In this document: piece by piece, positions 16,456 to 22,558 of the stretch
Layout of the letters: each line of letters starts with the position of its first letter
How positions within the stretch are numbered: position 1 is the stretch's first letter
IMG/VR virus record: IMGVR_UViG_3300045988_094189
Span: 1 to 42,303 of that record
Source: a virus
Direction: 5' to 3' (one strand)
DNA length: 42,303 bases
Notes under the pieces: model-generated
The model's input: only the letters and a program-made list of their open reading frames with translations
What the model was told of the DNA's origin: nothing
Databases searched by the model: none
Made by a program: the position numbers and the translations under genes

Positions 16456-16992
16456 TCACGCTCCCTCAAATCTTGCAATCCCAGTCGGGCAATAATCCGT
16501 GCCGTGTTTTTCGTCGAGTTCTCTAAGATATTTCTCAATTATGTCATTCTGTTTCTCGCAAATCTTAAAAAACGTATCGTATTCCCAGCTTTCTTCTTTC
16601 CAGAGGGTATACCCACTATGAGGGAAAAAGGCATTCGGGTTTTCTTCATTGAATTTATCGGCTCTTTCCTCCCATTCTTCTCTTTCTTCATCTGAGAGCA
16701 AGTCATAATAGTCCTCTTCGCCGGGCATATCACAGGAAATCAACAATTTCAATTCTGGCAATCCTACTTCTTTTAACTTATAACTCATGTTGTAATCATT
16801 GCAGTCGCTAAATTCATTCAGCAAATCAGCAGCGTTGCGGTTCCACATACTCTCGAATGAGCAGTGGAACTCGTGTCTTTTTGCGCATAGCTCCTGAATA
16901 ACGTCGTGCTGTTCAGGTGTCAATGTTTTTATTTCCTCATTCTCTCTGTTCTTTCGTTCTACGTACTTTTCTTTTGCTTCCCACTTATCCAT
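16456..16992 (-). CDS. Cassette gene 3: acidic protein of unknown function
   Basis: 178 aa, visibly D/E-rich (GEEDYYDLLSDEEREEWEERADKFNEENP). SD GGAGTAAGCGAGG lies upstream. No family recognised. Confidence 0.7.
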   Translation of the reverse strand: MDKWEAKEKYVERKNRENEEIKTLTPEQHDVIQELCAKRHEFHCSFESMWNRNAADLLNEFSDCNDYNMSYKLKEVGLPELKLLISCDMPGEEDYYDLLSDEEREEWEERADKFNEENPNAFFPHSGYTLWKEESWEYDTFFKICEKQNDIIEKYLRELDEKHGTDYCPTGIARFEGA

Positions 16993-17485: not shown

Positions 17486-17514
17486 ATAGTACAACGGGCT
17501 GTCCCGTTTGTCAA
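17486..17514 (-). promoter_or_regulatory. Consensus sigma-70 promoter of the antisense cassette
   Basis: The minus strand reads TTGACA (17509..17514), a 17-nt spacer, then TACTAT (17486..17491). The spacer is filled by operator palindrome 2. Confidence 0.7.
17493..17508. promoter_or_regulatory. Operator palindrome 2 (AACGGGCTGTCCCGTT, perfect)
   Basis: Perfect 6-N4-6 inverted repeat occupying the -35/-10 spacer. Confidence 0.65.
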
Positions 17515-17562
17515 CAGTTTTTTTAAAACTTTTTCAAACTTTTTTAAAAAAACCCCGCAAAC

Positions 17563-17578: not shown

Positions 17579-17768
17579 AAAAAATTTTAAAAATGTGCCA
17601 ACAGGAAGCCAAGCGGCGCGCATATAATGTATTATAATATATATAACAAAAGTATTTCTTCTACAACTGATTGTTTCATAGTTTTAAATTTACTCCTTGA
17701 AAGATATTCGGACGACAGCGGGACAAAATCCTGCTGTTTTTCGTTATGTTGGGGGAAAGGGGGCACAT

Positions 17769-18332
17769 ATGGCAGTAATAGAAAGCACAGCAGAAGTAAT
17801 AAATATTAAAGACACAGCCCCTAAGGGCAAGAGTAGGAAATGTAAGACAGCAGAGGAGACCGCAGCATACAAGGGGAAGAGAGGCGAGAGCTTCTCAGGC
17901 AACAACGGCAAGTCCGGCAGAGGCAGGGGAACGGGCGCAGGCAATCCGAGAGCCTTTACCAGTGCAGATGATCTCATAGACAAGCAGATAGCATACTGTA
18001 AATATATCAAAGATACAGGATATACAGAGTACCCAACTAAGAACGGATTCGCTGAATGGCTAGAAGTAGACCCAAAAACTGTTTATTTAAGCATTAAACG
18101 CTACTATCCGGAAGTTCAAAAACAGTGGCAGGAGAACATAGAGCAAACCCTTGTAAACGGCGTAAATGCAGGGGTTTACCACGTCACAATGACTATTTTC
18201 ATACTGAAAAACTGGTGTAACTGGGCGGACAGAAAAGAAAACATCACGACAGAGAAGAAGCCACAGATCGCAACAAAGGCAGAGCTAAAGGAGGCTATCA
18301 CAGCCTATCTGCAGGCTCCAGTAGACGAATAA
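17769..18332 (+). CDS. terS: Terminase small subunit
   Basis: 187 aa from ATG 17769 (SD GGGGAAAGGGGG). PTKNGFAEWLEVDPKTVY (HTH-like) and MTIFILKNWCNWADRKE match the Terminase_2-type pattern. It lies upstream of terL. Confidence 0.75.
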   Translation: MAVIESTAEVINIKDTAPKGKSRKCKTAEETAAYKGKRGESFSGNNGKSGRGRGTGAGNPRAFTSADDLIDKQIAYCKYIKDTGYTEYPTKNGFAEWLEVDPKTVYLSIKRYYPEVQKQWQENIEQTLVNGVNAGVYHVTMTIFILKNWCNWADRKENITTEKKPQIATKAELKEAITAYLQAPVDE

Positions 18333-18473
18333 ACATACAACCAATTGAATAAAAGTATCAGAATATCCCGAGGAAATACCTCAAAATATGAATAAATAGC
18401 GCATATTCATTGCATAAAGCAGTATAACAGAATATGCATAGATACAGCATACGCACCATAAAACAGCTAGAAC

Positions 18474-18489
18474 CGTTGAAATACCAACG
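18474..18489. repeat. CGTTGAAATACCAACG near-palindrome downstream of terS
   Basis: Same 16-mer with one substitution. Non-coding. Confidence 0.5.
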
Positions 18490-18512
18490 ATTATAGGCAT
18501 TATGAGTATGCA

Positions 18513-18544
18513 ACTATTCCGAAGATAAGGATTTTCGGAATAGT
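18513..18544. other. 11-bp perfect hairpin in the terS-terL spacer
   Basis: actattccgaa-gataaggatt-ttcggaatagt, followed by ttaaac. It could be a weak terminator or part of a larger RNA or DNA structure. Confidence 0.5.
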
Positions 18545-18755
18545 TTAAACATACATATACCCTGAAGATTTTTTTTTGAGGGTATACGGGGGACTGGGGG
18601 ATACCGGGGTACCGGGTAGTGAATACCGGTATAGTCCAAGTAGCAAGTATCGAATCCGAAAGACCCCCCTCGTCGAAACTCAGCCCCGTAGGTAGGGTAC
18701 CTCACCCGTGCAACCCAATTTCAAAACACCCCCTACCCAAAAATAGGTGGTATGT

Positions 18756-18825
18756 GCCGACGTAGCTCAGATGGTAAGGCCTGTTAAGCACAAGGTCGCA
18801 GGTTCAAGTCCTGCTGTCGGCGCCA
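18756..18825 (+). tRNA. tRNA-like element / degenerate tRNA (Asn-GTT-like loop, truncated anticodon arm)
   Basis: - Acceptor stem GCCGACG/TGTCGGC: 7 bp with one G-U pair.
- D arm GCTC-agatggta-AGGC.
- T arm GCAGG-TTCAAGT-CCTGC.
- Discriminator G plus an encoded CCA.
- Only 11 nt sit where the 17-nt anticodon arm should be. They include CTGTTAA, but no 5-bp stem can form. Confidence 0.55.
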
Positions 18826-18904
18826 GCAATCCAAATTACCTCCGAAGCATTTCGGGAAAATCCTTTTAAGTCGTGGCAGGAGACTGAAAACCCTGCCTTT
18901 TTAC

Positions 18905-20362
18905 ATGAATGAAGAACAACTGTACCGAATGATACTGCAAAACGACTACGCAGAGTATGTGCAGTATACATCTAGGGGACAATGGAAAAAGACAAAATTT
19001 CATAGATACCTGTGCGAAGCAGTACAAAGCTTCATTGAAACCGATACGGGACATGCTGCAGACATACTTGTTTTATCGGTCCCGCCGCAACACGGCAAGT
19101 CAGTAACCATAACTGAGAGCCTAGTGTCATGGTATTTGGGAAAGCACCCGAACCACAGCTGCATAATAGCATCATACAATACAGACTTTGCAGAAAGGTT
19201 CGGCAGACGTAACAAAGAGAAGATAGAACAGTACGGAGAAGCGATATTCGGAATAGGTGTCGGCGGTAAAAGCTCCAATCAGGAGTTTGAATTAGACGGG
19301 ACATCGGGCAGATGTATCTCAAGAGGTATGCTGTCGGGTATTACAGGTAACTCCGGTCACTTAATCATCATAGACGACCCTTTAAAGACAAAAGAGGAAG
19401 CATATTCGCAGACCACAAGGGACAAAATATGGGAAGAATGGAGTTTCTCTATCAAGTCACGTTATCAGGACAAAACAAAAGTAGTCGTGATAATGACGCG
19501 CTGGCACGATGATGACCTGGCAGGGCGGATAATCAAGAATGAAAACAATGTCACTGTAATAAACTTGCCTTTAGAAGCAGAAGCTGGTGATCCGTTAGGG
19601 CGTAAAGTCGGAGACGCTCTCTGCCCTGAACTTGGCAAAGACAACGCATGGGTAAAGGAATTCAAAGAGGGCTTCTTAAAGACCGAGGGCGGAACAATGG
19701 CGTGGAATGCACTTATGCAGGGACACCCCACATCAGAAGACGGCAACATGCTTAAAAGGGAGTGGTGGCAGTACTACGACGAACTGCCTGAATGCGGCGA
19801 CTGGCTTATGAGCGTTGACGCAGCCTTTAAAGACGGAGACGACAACGACTACGTTGCAATACAGGTATGGGGCAAACGAGACGCCAACATGTATCTTATC
19901 GACAGAGTTAAAAAGCACCTTGACTTTCCGTCCACATTAAGAGAGATAAGACGTCTGAGAGGACTGTATCCGAAAGTTAAACAGGTACTGATAGAAGACA
20001 AGGCAAACGGTTCTGCTGCAATACAGGTTTTAAGACGTGAAATGCATGGTGTAATAGGAATCAATCCGCAGGGCGGTAAAGTATCAAGAGTAAACGCAGT
20101 ATCGGGCGCAATAGAAAGCGGCAACGTATGGCTTCCGAAAAACAAAGCGTGGACACACGAATTTGTCGACGAATGCGCGGCGTTTCCTAACGGCGTGAAC
20201 GATGACGAAGTAGACTGCTGCTCACAGGCCTTAACAAGATTTATGTATTATCGCGGCAAAGTGCCGGAGATGACAAAAAAGAAGAAGACACTATCCGACG
20301 TATTCAATATGGGTACGAAAAGAAAGAGATTAGACATAGGAGACAAAATCAATGTTGTATAG
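18905..20362 (+). CDS. terL: Terminase large subunit
   Basis: 485 aa. Walker A VPPQHGKS, Walker B HLIIIDDP. The nuclease domain carries VDAAFKDGDDNDY, IEDKANG and NDDEVDCCSQAL. Confidence 0.95.
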   Translation: MNEEQLYRMILQNDYAEYVQYTSRGQWKKTKFHRYLCEAVQSFIETDTGHAADILVLSVPPQHGKSVTITESLVSWYLGKHPNHSCIIASYNTDFAERFGRRNKEKIEQYGEAIFGIGVGGKSSNQEFELDGTSGRCISRGMLSGITGNSGHLIIIDDPLKTKEEAYSQTTRDKIWEEWSFSIKSRYQDKTKVVVIMTRWHDDDLAGRIIKNENNVTVINLPLEAEAGDPLGRKVGDALCPELGKDNAWVKEFKEGFLKTEGGTMAWNALMQGHPTSEDGNMLKREWWQYYDELPECGDWLMSVDAAFKDGDDNDYVAIQVWGKRDANMYLIDRVKKHLDFPSTLREIRRLRGLYPKVKQVLIEDKANGSAAIQVLRREMHGVIGINPQGGKVSRVNAVSGAIESGNVWLPKNKAWTHEFVDECAAFPNGVNDDEVDCCSQALTRFMYYRGKVPEMTKKKKTLSDVFNMGTKRKRLDIGDKINVV

Positions 20363-20588
20363 TTTATCAACGCTGTTACTTTGCATGGTAATGGCTTTTT
20401 TAGTTCCGTTAGTTGTCATAAAAGCATTTATAGCAGGCTTTAAGTTCCAAAAGGGAGAAGATATCCTTGTACCTAAAAAAAAGGCTGTAAAGGTCACTGA
20501 AGGCGACCTAGAGCGCAAAAGAAAGATACTTGAAGCCAACATAGAAAAATATGACGGCACATCTACAGGACAGATAGAGGTTAAATAA
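20352..20588 (+). CDS. Small membrane protein
   Basis: 78 aa, N-terminal TM (LLLCMVMAFLVPLVVIKAFIAGF). It lies between terL and the portal gene. Confidence 0.55.
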   Translation: MLYSLSTLLLCMVMAFLVPLVVIKAFIAGFKFQKGEDILVPKKKAVKVTEGDLERKRKILEANIEKYDGTSTGQIEVK

Positions 20589-22558
20589 TGGAAACAACAT
20601 CAATATGGGTTAAATACCAAAAAGGTAAAGATTTCATCAATAAGAAAGCACTTATACAGAATACGCAGAAGAACTGGAACTTTTATTTAGGAAACCAGTG
20701 GGAGGGACTTGAAAGCGGCGGAGAGAAAATGCCGATGTTCAACTTCATCAAAGGCGTTGTAAAGTACAAAGTTGCGGTTATTTCACAAAACAAAATGGCT
20801 GCAAGGTATATAGATCCCGAAAGCCGCCCCGAGTACAAGGGAATATGCGAAGCACTGAACAAAAACTTTGAGAAACTGTGGGAAAACGGCAAATTTGACG
20901 TCAAATCGTGGAATACCGTCAAAGGCGCAGCTATAGTAGGCGACGCATATCTGTTTTGGGGCAATTCAGACGCTACAGACACACAGGTTTTGCCTAATGT
21001 AAACGTGCTTTTGGGTGACGAACAGCAGCCGGACCTGCAGAAACAGCCATACATTCTGATAATTGAGCGTTTAAGAGTAGGCGAGATTAAGCGAATGGCG
21101 AAGGAAAACGGCTTGCCGCAGGAGAAAATAGACCTTATTGTGCCGGACGAGGAAAAAGAGCTTGTCATAGGCGACAAAACAGAGGTTCAAAACCCCGATG
21201 ACGAAAAATGCCTGTCAATTCTCTATATGGACAAAGACGAAAACGGCTATGTCAGAGTAGGCAGAGCAACAAAAACAGTCGAGTATGAGCCGGTAGAGCC
21301 TTTAACGAGAAAAAATCAGCGTGGAGAGGCTACAGGAGGCTTAAAGGCATACCCGATAGTAAGTTACATATGGGAAGACGCACCGAACTCAGCAAGAGGG
21401 CTTGGAGAAGTAGAACAGCTTATTCCAAACCAGCTTGAATTAAATAAAACGCTTGCAAGGCGTTCAATCACAGTAAAGCAGACAGCGTACCCGCGCATAG
21501 CGTATGACAGAAGTGTGATTGATAACGAAGAGGATATAAACAGAATAGGTGCTGCAATCGCATTAAACGGCGGCGGCGCACAGTCTGTATCGCAGATGAT
21601 TTCATACTTAAACACAACGTCAATGTCAGCAGACGCACAGTATCTGTCAAACGACTTACTGGAGATAACGAGAGACCTTGCAGGTGCGGGAGATGCAGCA
21701 ACAGGTAATGTAGACCCTGAGAAAGCCTCAGGAGAAGCTATCAATGCAGTAAAAGACGCTGCACAAATGCCATTAAATGAACAGGTGGCAAAATACAGCC
21801 AGTTTGTAACAGACATTGCATACATAGCATTAAACTTATGGTTTGCATACAACAAGGATATTACTGTCTCATACGAAGACGACTTCGGGCAGCGACAGGA
21901 ACTGCAGATAACACAGGAAGATATAAACAATCTTCAGCCGAACATCAAGATAGACGTATCCTCAGACAGTCCTTGGAGCAAGCAGGCTGAACAGCAGGAG
22001 ATAAAGGAACTGTTTATGCAGGGCCACATCACCTTAGAGGAATATACAGAGCTTATGCCGGACAACTCATACATTCCAAAAGCGAAACTGAAAATCATTC
22101 TTGACAAGAGAAAAAATCAGATGATGAATCAAACGCCTATGGGACAAATACCTATGGAACAGATGGAACAAATACCTGCAGAGCTTGACGACGACGAAGA
22201 GGCGGCGGCAATAGATGAAATGGCACTGCAGATGATGAACACAGAGGAACTTGACGATGAAGAAGAAGCTGCAGCTATAGACGAGGGTGCAATGCAGATA
22301 ATGCAGGGCGAGGGCGCTGTAGACGAAAACGGCGAACTGACAGACGGAGCATTAGACGAAGACGCACTTGTAGAAAGACTGCTTGCCGAAGCAGAAGCCG
22401 CAGAATGGCAGAATAGCCGTTCAGTCAATAAAGAACTTAAAGAAATCCTTGATAAATGCCTTGAAGAGGGGCTTATCGACAAGGAAGATTACGAAAAGGC
22501 TTTGCAGAACGGCTTATCGGAAGAAGAAATTGAATACCTAAAGAGTTTACTCAGTTAA
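20588..22558 (+). CDS. Portal protein with long acidic C-terminal extension
   Basis: 656 aa. The N-terminus KNWNFYLGNQWEG is typical of SPP1-Gp6-type portals, and the gene follows terL. The C-terminal ~150 aa are D/E-rich with an internal duplication. Confidence 0.85.
   Translation: METTSIWVKYQKGKDFINKKALIQNTQKNWNFYLGNQWEGLESGGEKMPMFNFIKGVVKYKVAVISQNKMAARYIDPESRPEYKGICEALNKNFEKLWENGKFDVKSWNTVKGAAIVGDAYLFWGNSDATDTQVLPNVNVLLGDEQQPDLQKQPYILIIERLRVGEIKRMAKENGLPQEKIDLIVPDEEKELVIGDKTEVQNPDDEKCLSILYMDKDENGYVRVGRATKTVEYEPVEPLTRKNQRGEATGGLKAYPIVSYIWEDAPNSARGLGEVEQLIPNQLELNKTLARRSITVKQTAYPRIAYDRSVIDNEEDINRIGAAIALNGGGAQSVSQMISYLNTTSMSADAQYLSNDLLEITRDLAGAGDAATGNVDPEKASGEAINAVKDAAQMPLNEQVAKYSQFVTDIAYIALNLWFAYNKDITVSYEDDFGQRQELQITQEDINNLQPNIKIDVSSDSPWSKQAEQQEIKELFMQGHITLEEYTELMPDNSYIPKAKLKIILDKRKNQMMNQTPMGQIPMEQMEQIPAELDDDEEAAAIDEMALQMMNTEELDDEEEAAAIDEGAMQIMQGEGAVDENGELTDGALDEDALVERLLAEAEAAEWQNSRSVNKELKEILDKCLEEGLIDKEDYEKALQNGLSEEEIEYLKSLLS

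What the first reader, a model, noticed from the sequence alone, without database searches (positions are those of the whole stretch)
18756..18825. tRNA-like element with intact acceptor stem, T arm and encoded CCA but a truncated anticodon arm, 80 nt upstream of terL
**What folds**
- A 70-nt sequence folds into a 7-bp acceptor stem, a D arm with the GG loop, a perfect GCAGG/TTCAAGT/CCTGC T arm, a discriminator base and a genomically encoded CCA.
- Between the D arm and the variable region there are only 11 nt (tgttaagcaca) instead of 17. These give at most a 3-bp stem with a 5-nt loop.
- The heptamer CTGTTAA, which would be an Asn-GTT anticodon loop, is present but has no canonical 5-bp stem around it.

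**Possible interpretations**
- A decayed tRNA gene.
- A functional tRNA mimic. It could serve as an RNase P/Z processing signal separating the terS and terL messages.
- A decoy for host tRNA-targeting defence nucleases or for tRNA-modifying or CCA-adding enzymes.
- An att-like sequence.

Its placement between the two terminase genes is unusual.
Basis: partly seen in the sequence, partly recalled or inferred. Interest (0 to 1): 0.62.

Follow-up and report, generated by a model that had tools for sequence, protein, structure and literature searches.

The report
Phage asparagine tRNA missing its anticodon arm
This 70-base element is a gut phage's own asparagine tRNA gene that has lost seven bases and can no longer read codons but still looks like a tRNA; sister phages carry the intact gene, and two other tRNAs at the same spot have lost the same arm, so the tRNA shape may still be in use.

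Summary
Window 18756-18825 scores 40 bits on Rfam tRNA (cut-off 29). The acceptor stem, T arm, G73 and CCA are perfect, but 11 nt stand where the 17-nt anticodon arm should be. ARAGORN calls nothing.

- **Origin.** It is a deletion allele of a phage tRNA-Asn(GUU) gene. Sister phages carry the full 77-nt gene in the same slot upstream of terL. The window's copy equals that gene minus AGCAGGT.
- **The slot.** About 36 related contigs hold a recombining tRNA mini-array of Asn, Thr(UGU) and a third species, "X". Each species occurs with a 10-11-nt mini anticodon arm, and X occurs only in that form. Wrecks also occur: a Thr/Asn chimera, fragments and deletions.
- **Reading.** It cannot decode. It keeps what bacterial RNase P and 3' maturation need. 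My best reading (0.45) is a retained tRNA-shaped module of the terL leader, cut out as a ~70-nt RNA. A neutral young pseudogene is nearly as likely (0.38).
- **Rejected or weak.** An att site is not supported. A decoy role is speculative.
- **Earlier notes.** This scan noted anticodon-less tRNA-like phage RNAs before on other DNA. I did not check those notes.

The parts
18756..18825 (+). Mini-anticodon-arm tRNA-Asn derivative, 70 nt including the encoded CCA
   Evidence: Rfam tRNA 40 bits. No ARAGORN call. Identical to the full-length tRNA-Asn(GTT) of L041 and L072 except for a 7-nt gap.
18756..18762 (+). Acceptor stem, 5' strand (GCCGACG). It pairs with 18815-18821 (TGTCGGC).
   Evidence: cmscan alignment. 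Sequence read.
18765..18780 (+). D arm. GCTC / AGATGGTA / AGGC gives 3 pairs plus a C-A mismatch. G18 and G19 are kept. The 3' strand is rebuilt from former anticodon-stem bases.
   Evidence: cmscan alignment. Comparison with the intact alleles.
18778..18779 (+). Deletion junction. Full-length alleles have AGCAGGT between these two bases, that is D-stem 3' strand nt 23-25, nt 26 and anticodon-stem nt 27-29.
   Evidence: Alignments.
18782..18792 (+). Mini arm TGT / TAAGC / ACA: an 11-nt remnant of the 17-nt anticodon arm. The former anticodon GTT now sits partly in the 5' stem strand (TGT) and partly in the loop.
   Evidence: cmscan local gap. Folds.
18798..18814 (+). T arm GCAGG / TTCAAGT / CCTGC. 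It is invariant in every Asn allele inspected, whether full-length, mini or chimeric.
18822..18825 (+). Discriminator G73 plus the encoded CCA (an RCCA motif)
   Evidence: The role of RCCA in bacterial RNase P recognition is taken from PMC4919922.
18694..18755 (+). Conserved 5' flank of the tRNA slot (...CCCCCTACCnnAAAATAGGTGGTATRT). It ends with T at position -1.
   Evidence: 0-1 variable sites among the three mini-Asn carriers. The same flank precedes Asn, Thr and X elements.
18826..18904 (+). Conserved 3' leader up to the terL ATG. It holds hairpin 18841-18856 and hairpin GGCAGG-N11-CCTGCC at 18875-18897, followed by T5 at 18898-18902.
   Evidence: No variable site at 18833-18889 in 7 genomes. 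Fold.
18905..20362 (+). terL (large terminase subunit)
   Evidence: Pfam Terminase_6N and Terminase_6C; PHROG 38 at E 3.9e-101.
17697..18332 (+). terS-like gene (small terminase subunit, weak match)
   Evidence: Pfam GP3_package E 3e-4 and PHROG 606 E 4e-4. Orthologues in relatives carry GP3_package hits.

Best explanation
The element is an allele of the phage's own accessory tRNA-Asn(GUU) gene. It has lost 7 nt: the 3' strand of the D stem, nt 26 and the 5' strand of the anticodon stem.

**Shown**
- The remaining bases re-pair into a short-limbed cloverleaf with a 3-bp D stem and a 3-bp/5-nt mini arm.
- There is no 7-nt anticodon loop on a 5-bp stem, so it cannot decode. AsnRS needs the anticodon (my own knowledge), so it should not be charged either.
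- Everything bacterial RNase P and 3' maturation read is intact: U(-1), the 7-bp acceptor stem, the T arm, the G18G19/T-loop elbow and G73-CCA.

**Inferred**
- It is still transcribed with the terS-terL late region.
- It is cut out by RNase P at its 5' end and by 3' trimming, giving a stable ~70-nt tRNA-shaped RNA.
- The cuts separate the upstream RNA from a terL message that begins with two conserved hairpins.

On this reading the tRNA body is kept as a shape-dependent processing or small-RNA module, and decoding is dispensable. That would explain why three different tRNA species in this slot have each lost only the anticodon arm.
For: **Origin**
- Full-length tRNA-Asn(GTT) genes sit in the same slot in sister phages, scoring 63-68 bits and called by ARAGORN.
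- The window allele equals the L041/L072 allele minus AGCAGGT.
- One full-length allele carries a compensatory G28-C42 to U28-A42 change (L066/L067). The ancestral gene was therefore a working tRNA.

**Recurrence**
- tRNA-Thr(TGT) occurs full-length in L004, L006, L042, L039, L052, L053, L063, L064, L068, L070 and L071; L065 and L075 hold only its 3' part at a contig end.
- The same Thr gene occurs with a 10-nt arm in L008, L041, L073 and L074.
- Between the two mini-Thr alleles, GCTGAAAGGA changes to GCCGAAAGGA. This turns a U-G pair into a C-G pair closing a GAAA loop.
- A third species, X, is seen only with an 11-nt arm (GAC/UUCGU/GUC), in 8 contigs.
- All 3-4 small internal lesions fall in nt 22-43, about 30% of the gene. 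By my own estimate that has a chance of about 0.008-0.03.

**Persistence**
- The three mini-Asn carriers are 96-100% complete genomes with no other tRNA.
- Their upstream 400 nt differ by 7.5-10.5% and their terL 4-fold sites by 15-16%.
- Yet their elements differ only at 3 positions, all within a few nt of the junction, and at none of the other ~60 nt.

**Context**
- The slot flanks are nearly invariant whichever tRNA they hold.
- Bacterial RNase P tolerates extensive truncation of tRNA. It uses RCCA and prefers U(-1) (PMC4919922).

**Precedents for non-decoding tRNA-like processing signals**
- Plant mitochondrial t-elements (PMC1920247).
- mascRNA and menRNA (PMC11693755).
Against: - No RNA evidence exists.
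- The tRNA shape is not indispensable in the slot:
  - L061/L062 carry a Thr-5'/Asn-3' chimera whose acceptor stem has 2 mismatches and 3 G-U pairs.
  - L007 keeps only the 5' 45 nt of X.
  - L054-L060 keep a 50-nt remnant that does not fold better than shuffles.
  - X is deleted outright in several genomes.
- The window allele is a pure deletion of a current full-length allele, so it could be very young.
- The D stem of the L003 and L005 alleles is degraded (34-35 bits).
- The flanks are as conserved as the tRNA body. Recombination is rife. Low diversity of the body may therefore reflect cassette exchange and not selection on the body.
- Only three mini-Asn alleles are known.
- More distant relatives (TerL 61-63% identical) have no tRNA-like element upstream of terL.
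Confidence: 0.45

Rival explanations
1. Neutral young pseudogene. The accessory tRNA-Asn gene became dispensable in this lineage and a random 7-nt deletion killed it. The element has no selected role. Its intact-looking body reflects only its youth and frequent cassette exchange in a recombination-prone tRNA array.
For: - The window allele equals a current full-length allele minus 7 nt, with no other change.
- The slot shows every kind of wreck: chimera, 5' fragment, 50-nt remnant and whole-element deletions.
- Full-length alleles carrying C33 in place of the near-universal U33 (L069-L071) are the likely parents of the L003/L005 mini alleles. This suggests decoding was relaxed before the deletion.
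- The L003 and L005 D stems are degraded.
- The flanks are as conserved as the body.
Against: - All 3-4 small lesions, in three tRNA species, hit the same ~30% of the gene and leave arms of 10-11 nt.
- X exists only as a mini form. It is identical in 7 of the 8 contigs that carry it, while the spacer after it diverges by up to 26%.
- Mini-Thr has persisted on two T-arm backgrounds and gained a pair-strengthening change.
- Mini-Asn sits in three backgrounds 7.5-10.5% apart, with no change outside the junction zone.
Confidence: 0.38
2. Liability removal. The intact anticodon stem-loop was selected against, either at the RNA level (an anticodon nuclease or a sensor of its cleavage products) or at the DNA level (a CRISPR protospacer). 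Deletions and substitutions therefore pile up there, and the rest of the gene simply comes along.
For: - Variation is concentrated from the D loop to nt 33 in Asn, and in the anticodon arm in Thr.
- C33 variants exist among full-length Asn alleles. This recalls the proposal that phage tRNAs escape anticodon nucleases through loop mutations (PMC10264068, found; the title only was used).
- The phage carries an AcrVA1 homologue, so it does meet CRISPR pressure.
Against: - No spacer-like match to the tRNA region turned up in 401 Oscillospiraceae genomes. Only two weak tRNA-gene matches were found. The host is unknown, so this test is weak.
- A non-decoding tRNA gives the phage no supply benefit. 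The model therefore needs the intact gene to be harmful, and nothing shows that.
- Most sampled genomes keep the intact genes.
Confidence: 0.07
3. Decoy or competitor for enzymes that read the acceptor stem, T arm and CCA tail. Examples are tRNA-tail nucleases such as Cas12a3, or toxins that modify the CCA end. The decoy cannot enter translation.
For: - The element keeps the parts that Cas12a3 is reported to engage: the tail, the acceptor stem and the T arm (PMC12851939).
- That paper says viral tRNAs cannot readily circumvent tail cleavage.
- The phage encodes an AcrVA1 homologue, which acts against type V-A CRISPR.
Against: - A decoy would have to compete with the whole cellular tRNA pool.
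- There is no expression data.
- An intact tRNA would serve as a decoy equally well, so the loss of the arm is not explained.
- X lacks an encoded CCA in most genomes.
- No Cas12a3 host is known for this phage.
Confidence: 0.07
4. att-like site: the element is the phage attachment site, or a remnant of one, for integration into a host tRNA gene.
For: The phage is temperate. It has a tyrosine integrase at 191-1204 on the - strand. Many integrases of this kind target tRNA genes (my own knowledge).
Against: - The integrase is 17.5 kb away.
- All ~36 contigs show phage sequence on both sides of the slot.
- The same flanks hold Asn, Thr or both.
- The element carries the complete 5' half of the tRNA, which an attP does not need.
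Confidence: 0.02
5. An ordinary decoding tRNA with an unusual fold that the standard tools mis-align.
For: The CTGTTAA heptamer (Asn GTT) survives in the window allele.
Against: - Only 2 pairs can flank that heptamer.
- L003 and L005 have C at nt 33 and 1 flanking pair.
- ARAGORN makes no call.
- No fold shows a 7-nt loop on a 5-bp stem.
Confidence: 0.01

Closest known systems
Canonical phage-encoded tRNA-Asn(GUU): the full-length alleles in sister phages L002, L041 and L072 (Rfam RF00005)
   Same: The sequence is identical outside the 7-nt gap. It sits in the same slot between the same flanks. The acceptor stem, T arm, G73 and CCA are the same.
   Different: It lacks nt 23-29. It has no 5-bp anticodon stem or 7-nt loop, so it cannot decode. 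It scores 40 bits against 64-68, and ARAGORN does not call it.
Plant mitochondrial t-elements: tRNA-like cis-signals for RNase P and RNase Z at mRNA ends (PMC1920247)
   Same: Both are non-decoding, tRNA-derived cloverleaf-like elements with a conserved T arm. Both sit directly upstream or downstream of protein genes. The proposed mode of action is the same: cuts that define mRNA ends and release a stable small RNA.
   Different: t-elements are organellar and have experimentally mapped ends. Here nothing has been mapped, the system is a bacteriophage, and the CCA is encoded.
mascRNA and menRNA: tRNA-like 3' modules of MALAT1 and NEAT1 (PMC11693755, PMC4919922)
   Same: Both have a tRNA-like L shape with a normal acceptor/T-arm limb and elbow but a non-standard anticodon-equivalent region. 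mascRNA and menRNA are not aminoacylated and are recognised by RNase P and RNase Z.
   Different: They are eukaryotic nuclear lncRNA modules, and their anticodon-equivalent stem is longer with a compact loop. They are not recent derivatives of a working tRNA gene.
RNase P-processed phage regulatory RNAs: the C4 antisense RNA precursor of P1 and P7 (cited in PMC4919922, ref. 206)
   Same: Both are RNAs of a temperate phage whose maturation would depend on host RNase P recognising a tRNA-like acceptor end.
   Different: C4 is an antisense regulator with a known target. It is not a cloverleaf derived from a tRNA gene.
Rfam RF02435 SpF41 sRNA. An earlier, unchecked note of this scan says it has tRNA-shaped, non-decoding domains.
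   Same: By that note, it is a phage-borne tRNA mimic with truncated anticodon arms.
   Different: No match to this family appears in the window region even at E up to 10. The element is not a member.

Membership tests
tRNA (Rfam RF00005), functional decoding tRNA | Scores above the Rfam gathering threshold over the full model | tested here: met
   40.0 bits against a gathering score of 29, model positions 1-71.
tRNA (Rfam RF00005), functional decoding tRNA | A 5-bp anticodon stem closing a 7-nt loop, with U33 and a 3-nt anticodon | tested here: not met
   11 nt stand where 17 are expected. The best arrangement is a 3-bp stem with a 5-nt loop. ARAGORN makes no call.
tRNA (Rfam RF00005), functional decoding tRNA | Acceptor stem, T arm, T-loop consensus and G18G19 (the elbow) | tested here: met
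   7-bp acceptor stem, GCAGG/TTCAAGT/CCTGC T arm and GG in the D loop.
tRNA (Rfam RF00005), functional decoding tRNA | Aminoacylation and use on the ribosome | not testable with these tools
   This needs acid-gel northern blots or tRNA-seq.
tRNA pseudogene (derived from a working tRNA gene by an inactivating lesion) | An intact orthologue at the same locus in close relatives | tested here: met
   Full-length tRNA-Asn(GTT) sits in the same slot in L002, L008, L041, L052, L053, L063, L064, L066-L072 and others.
tRNA pseudogene (derived from a working tRNA gene by an inactivating lesion) | Neutral decay: changes spread over the whole gene at about the neutral rate | tested here: inconclusive
   The three mini-Asn alleles differ only near the junction. 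However, the alleles may be young or exchanged by recombination, and n = 3.
tRNA-like processing element (t-element or mascRNA type) | A non-decoding tRNA-like fold that keeps the acceptor/T-arm limb and elbow | tested here: met
   U(-1) and RCCA are also present (PMC4919922).
tRNA-like processing element (t-element or mascRNA type) | RNA ends of neighbouring transcripts and of the small RNA coincide with the ends of the element | not testable with these tools
tRNA-like processing element (t-element or mascRNA type) | Conserved in relatives as a tRNA-shaped element regardless of decoding identity | tested here: inconclusive
   Most of the ~36 contigs have at least one tRNA-shaped element in the slot. 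L061/L062 (chimera), L007 and L054-L060 do not clearly have one.
Phage attP in a tRNA gene | Adjacent to the integrase, and at a phage-host junction in prophages | tested here: not met
   The integrase lies at 191-1204, 17.5 kb away. Phage DNA lies on both sides of the slot in all contigs.
SpF41 sRNA (RF02435) | Match to the family covariance model | tested here: not met
   No match at E up to 10 in window 18300-18950.

The most novel reading that the evidence does not exclude
This phage lineage converts its accessory tRNA genes into anticodon-less, short-limbed tRNA mimics (mini-Asn, mini-Thr and X). The mimics would be made on purpose, as small RNAs that occupy host or defence factors reading only the acceptor stem, T arm and CCA tail. 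Examples of such factors are tRNA-tail nucleases of the Cas12a3 type or CCA-modifying toxins. The mimics would stay invisible to synthetases, ribosomes and anticodon nucleases. That would make them an RNA-based counter-defence, sitting beside the phage's protein anti-CRISPR (the AcrVA1 homologue).
Probability: 0.06. Interest if true: 0.85.

Novelty: new variant of a known kind. Interest (0 to 1): 0.5.

Why it matters
Phage tRNA genes are usually discussed only as codon suppliers or as spare parts against anticodon nucleases. In one natural gut-phage population, the same locus holds intact tRNAs and derivatives that have lost only the anticodon limb. This has happened in three different tRNA species.

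If the tRNA body is retained for its shape, as a processing signal or as a small RNA, several things follow:
- Phages would join plant mitochondria and mammalian lncRNAs in reusing tRNA shape as a signal.
- The many "pseudo-tRNA" calls in phage genomes would deserve a second look.
- This locus would offer a ready-made allelic series (full-length, C33, mini, chimera, absent) for testing what a tRNA body does apart from decoding.

If the element is only decay, the finding still documents how phage tRNA arrays turn over.

Tried and rejected
- **ARAGORN.** No call on the window, nor on L003, L005, L054, L061 and L062. The element is not a standard tRNA.
- **Other Rfam families.** At E up to 10 on 18300-18950 only tRNA matches. 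There is no SpF41, no tmRNA and no other family. The antisense Plastid-ycf2 hit (27.5 bits against a cut-off of 65.7) is simply the tRNA read backwards.
- **Exact-pattern scans.** Viral contigs and metagenome contigs added only a few contigs. The larger sample came from TerL cluster members.
- **The window's own TerL.** It is not on record in the contig index.
- **Host and prophage search.**
  - TerL relatives in genomes reach only 37-56% identity: an Oscillospiraceae MAG, Lederbergia and Lentilactobacillus.
  - DNA search of 401 Oscillospiraceae genomes found no prophage and no spacer-like hit to the tRNA.
  - The host therefore remains unknown, and the CRISPR-escape idea could not be tested properly.
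- **Alternative folds of the mini-Asn alleles.**
  - Two were considered: a GGCCU/AGGUC stem in the window, and a GAUGG/CYGUU hairpin in L003 and L005.
  - They are not shared by all alleles, and their z-scores are weak, -1.5 to -2.5.
  - I do not build on them.
- **The 50-nt element of L054-L060.** It can be drawn as an acceptor stem, a hairpin and a T arm, but it folds no better than shuffles (z = -0.6). I treat it as a remnant.
- **Promoter scan.** No convincing sigma-70 promoter lies directly upstream of the element. I therefore assume co-transcription.

Full report
**1. Observation**

The window is a complete 42,303-bp viral contig with terminal repeats. It belongs to a temperate phage. 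Its landmarks are listed here.
- A tyrosine integrase lies at 191-1204 on the - strand.
- A replication module holds G39P-like, SSB and RuvC genes.
- A terS-like gene lies at 17697-18332.
- terL lies at 18905-20362 and the portal gene at 20588-22558.

Rfam finds exactly one RNA family match in the window. It is tRNA at 18756-18822 on the + strand, at 40 bits (cut-off 29), covering the full model, with a local gap of 5 nt where 11 inner anticodon-arm positions are expected. ARAGORN calls nothing.
- a 7-bp acceptor stem;
- GG in the D loop;
- the T arm GCAGG/TTCAAGT/CCTGC;
- G73 and an encoded CCA;
- 11 nt (TGTTAAGCACA) in place of the 17-nt arm;
- 79 nt between the CCA and the terL ATG.

**2. 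Origin**

TerL relatives in viral contigs include seven genomes with 92-99% identical TerL. In L002 and L008 the same position holds a full-length tRNA-Asn(GTT), called by ARAGORN and scoring 64-65 bits. More full-length alleles came from contigs that encode members of the TerL 90% cluster, which has 254 members.

The window element is letter for letter the L041/L072 allele without AGCAGGT. That stretch is nt 23-29 of the tRNA: three bases of the D-stem 3' strand, nt 26 and three bases of the anticodon-stem 5' strand. Former anticodon-stem bases G30 and C31 now complete a 3-bp D stem. U33-G34-U35 pair with A41-C42-A43.

The ancestral gene was a working tRNA. In L066/L067 its anticodon stem carries a compensatory G28-C42 to U28-A42 change.

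**3. The slot**

The slot lies between a conserved 5' flank (...CCCCCTACCnnAAAATAGGTGGTATRT) and a conserved 3' leader that runs to terL. About 36 contigs from many gut metagenome assemblies hold a variable mini-array there:

| Slot content | Contigs |
|---|---|
| Full-length Asn alone | L002, L072, L066/67; L069 has C33 |
| Mini-Asn alone | window, L003, L005 |
| Full-length Thr(TGT) alone | L004, L006, L042 |
| Thr directly followed by Asn | L053, L064, L065, L075 |
| Full-length Thr + X + Asn | L052, L063, L068; L039 is cut at the contig end |
| Mini-Thr + X + Asn | L008, L041, L073, L074 |
| Thr + Asn(C33), with X deleted | L070, L071 |
| Thr-5'/Asn-3' chimera with a mismatched acceptor stem | L061, L062 |
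| The first 45 nt of X joined to downstream spacer | L007 |
| A 50-nt remnant with a GGTTCAAGGCC motif | L054-L060 |

X is a 68-nt tRNA-like element (36.5-39.8 bits). Its anticodon arm is GAC/UUCGU/GUC, 11 nt, and no full-length version was seen. Mini-Thr has GC[T/C]GAAAGGA, 10 nt, in place of 17 nt.

So three tRNA species show the same architecture: everything is normal except an arm of 10-11 nt. The relatives' genomes hold no tRNA elsewhere.

**4. Decay or retained?**

*For retention*
- All 3-4 small internal lesions fall in nt 22-43, about 30% of the gene. By my estimate the chance of that is about 0.008-0.03.
- There is no ascertainment bias, because I read the slot directly and did not rely on a tRNA finder.
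- X is identical in 7 of the 8 contigs that carry it, while the spacer after it diverges by 12% on average and up to 26%.
- Mini-Thr occurs on two T-arm backgrounds. Its two alleles differ by a change that turns a U-G pair into a C-G pair under a GAAA loop.
- The three mini-Asn carriers differ by 15-16% at terL 4-fold sites and by 7.5-10.5% in the upstream 400 nt.
- Yet their elements differ only at three positions next to the junction and nowhere in the other ~60 nt.

*For decay*
- The window allele needs no change other than the deletion, so it may be young.
- L003 and L005 derive from the C33 full-length allele, by loss of GCAGGTG plus one nearby substitution each. Their D stems are poor (34-35 bits).
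- The flanks are as conserved as the body, and the region is visibly mosaic. Cassette exchange could therefore mimic constraint.
- Several genomes live with a wrecked element or without X.
- More distant relatives have no tRNA-like element upstream of terL.

I judge retention slightly more likely than neutral decay (0.45 against 0.38), but the call is close.

**5. Mechanism**

*Shown*
- The element cannot present an anticodon.
- It keeps U(-1), the acceptor stem, the T arm, the elbow nucleotides and G73-CCA.

*From the literature*
- Bacterial RNase P tolerates extensive truncation of the tRNA body.
- It pairs its L15 loop with RCCA and prefers U(-1) (PMC4919922).

*Inferred*
- No convincing promoter lies directly upstream, so I assume the element is co-transcribed with the late region.
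- It would then be excised, yielding a stable ~70-nt RNA and a terL message that begins with two invariant hairpins. These are 18841-18856, and 18875-18897 followed by T5.

The closest working analogues are plant mitochondrial t-elements (PMC1920247) and mascRNA/menRNA (PMC11693755).

**6. Other readings**

- **att site.** Rejected. The integrase is 17.5 kb away, phage DNA lies on both sides of the slot in all contigs, and the tRNA in the slot is interchangeable.
- **Hidden normal tRNA.** Rejected.
- **Liability removal** (escape from an anticodon nuclease or from CRISPR). It fits the local hypervariability and the C33 alleles, but it has no direct support. The spacer search in 401 Oscillospiraceae genomes found nothing relevant, and the host is unknown.
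- **Decoy for acceptor- or CCA-reading nucleases.** This is the most novel reading.
  - The phage carries an AcrVA1 homologue (E 1.6e-23 to PDB 6NMD).
  - But an intact tRNA would serve equally well, and a decoy must compete with the whole tRNA pool.

**7. Limits**

- Only three mini-Asn alleles are known.
- Recombination blurs any dating of the alleles.
- Earlier notes of this scan report anticodon-less tRNA-like RNAs in other phages (e1-200217, e1-3488236, e1-185656). I treated them as leads only. The one testable link, Rfam SpF41, does not match here.

Noticed in passing
L061:1027-1100 and L062:1027-1100: A chimeric tRNA gene. The 5' part of tRNA-Thr (GGCAGTGTAGCTCAAAGTAGAGCAG) is fused in register to the 3' part of tRNA-Asn. 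The anticodon arm is intact, but the acceptor stem has 2 mismatches and 3 G-U pairs (47.3 bits; ARAGORN makes no call). It is probably a deletion by recombination between the two genes of a Thr-X-Asn array.
   Followed up: partly
L069, L070 and L071 (Asn gene in the slot): Full-length tRNA-Asn alleles have C at position 33 (anticodon loop CCGUUAA) in place of the near-universal U33. They occur in three contigs from different samples and are the likely parents of the L003/L005 mini alleles. They could reflect relaxed decoding or a nuclease-escape loop variant.
   Followed up: partly
L006:1813-4275 (also L007): terL is 820 aa here, against 485 aa in the window. A ~335-aa insert after about residue 60 carries a LAGLIDADG_3 domain. 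This is an intein with a homing endonuclease inside the large terminase.
   Followed up: partly
L015:307-370 (-): A type II hammerhead ribozyme (Rfam RF02276, 52.7 bits against a cut-off of 37) lies about 2.6 kb upstream of terL in a relative with 61% identical TerL.
   Followed up: no
window 18586-18618: A tract with four G runs (GGGGGACTGGGGGATACCGGGGTACCGGG) is almost invariant in the close relatives. It could be a G-quadruplex or a pac/terminase recognition site within the 570-nt terS-terL spacer.
   Followed up: no
window 18527-18536 and 18856-18865: A perfect 10-nt inverted repeat (AAGGATTTTC / GAAAATCCTT) brackets the G-rich tract and the tRNA-like element. Both arms lie in invariant sequence. 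Chance expectation is about 0.2 per region, so it may mean nothing. It could also be a long-range processing stem.
   Followed up: no
window 18875-18904: The hairpin GGCAGG-N11-CCTGCC followed by TTTTT ends 2 nt before the terL ATG and contains the only AGGAG nearby. It could be an attenuator or a translational control element for terL. It is invariant in the close relatives.
   Followed up: no
L005, L008 and L041, between the slot and terL: A small extra ORF of about 57 aa with CxxC...CxC motifs (zinc-ribbon-like) is inserted between the conserved leader and terL. Its stop codon overlaps the terL start.
   Followed up: no
window 16456-16992 (-): This ORF is an AcrVA1 homologue (PDB 6NMD chain B, E 1.6e-23).
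   Followed up: yes
window 17502-17550: A T-rich motif (CCCGTTTGTCAACAGTTTTTTTAAAACTTTTTCAAACTTTTTT) recurs at 80-100% identity in dozens of Oscillospiraceae genomes, often near contig ends. It is probably a shared terminator or promoter type, and a weak hint at the host family.
   Followed up: partly
L008:2350-2680 and its equivalent in L068 and L052 (spacer between X and Asn): The spacer after X holds conserved hairpins and exists in two very different versions. In L052 a further ~110-nt insert follows an X copy that does have an encoded CCA. More small RNAs may be encoded in this array.
   Followed up: no
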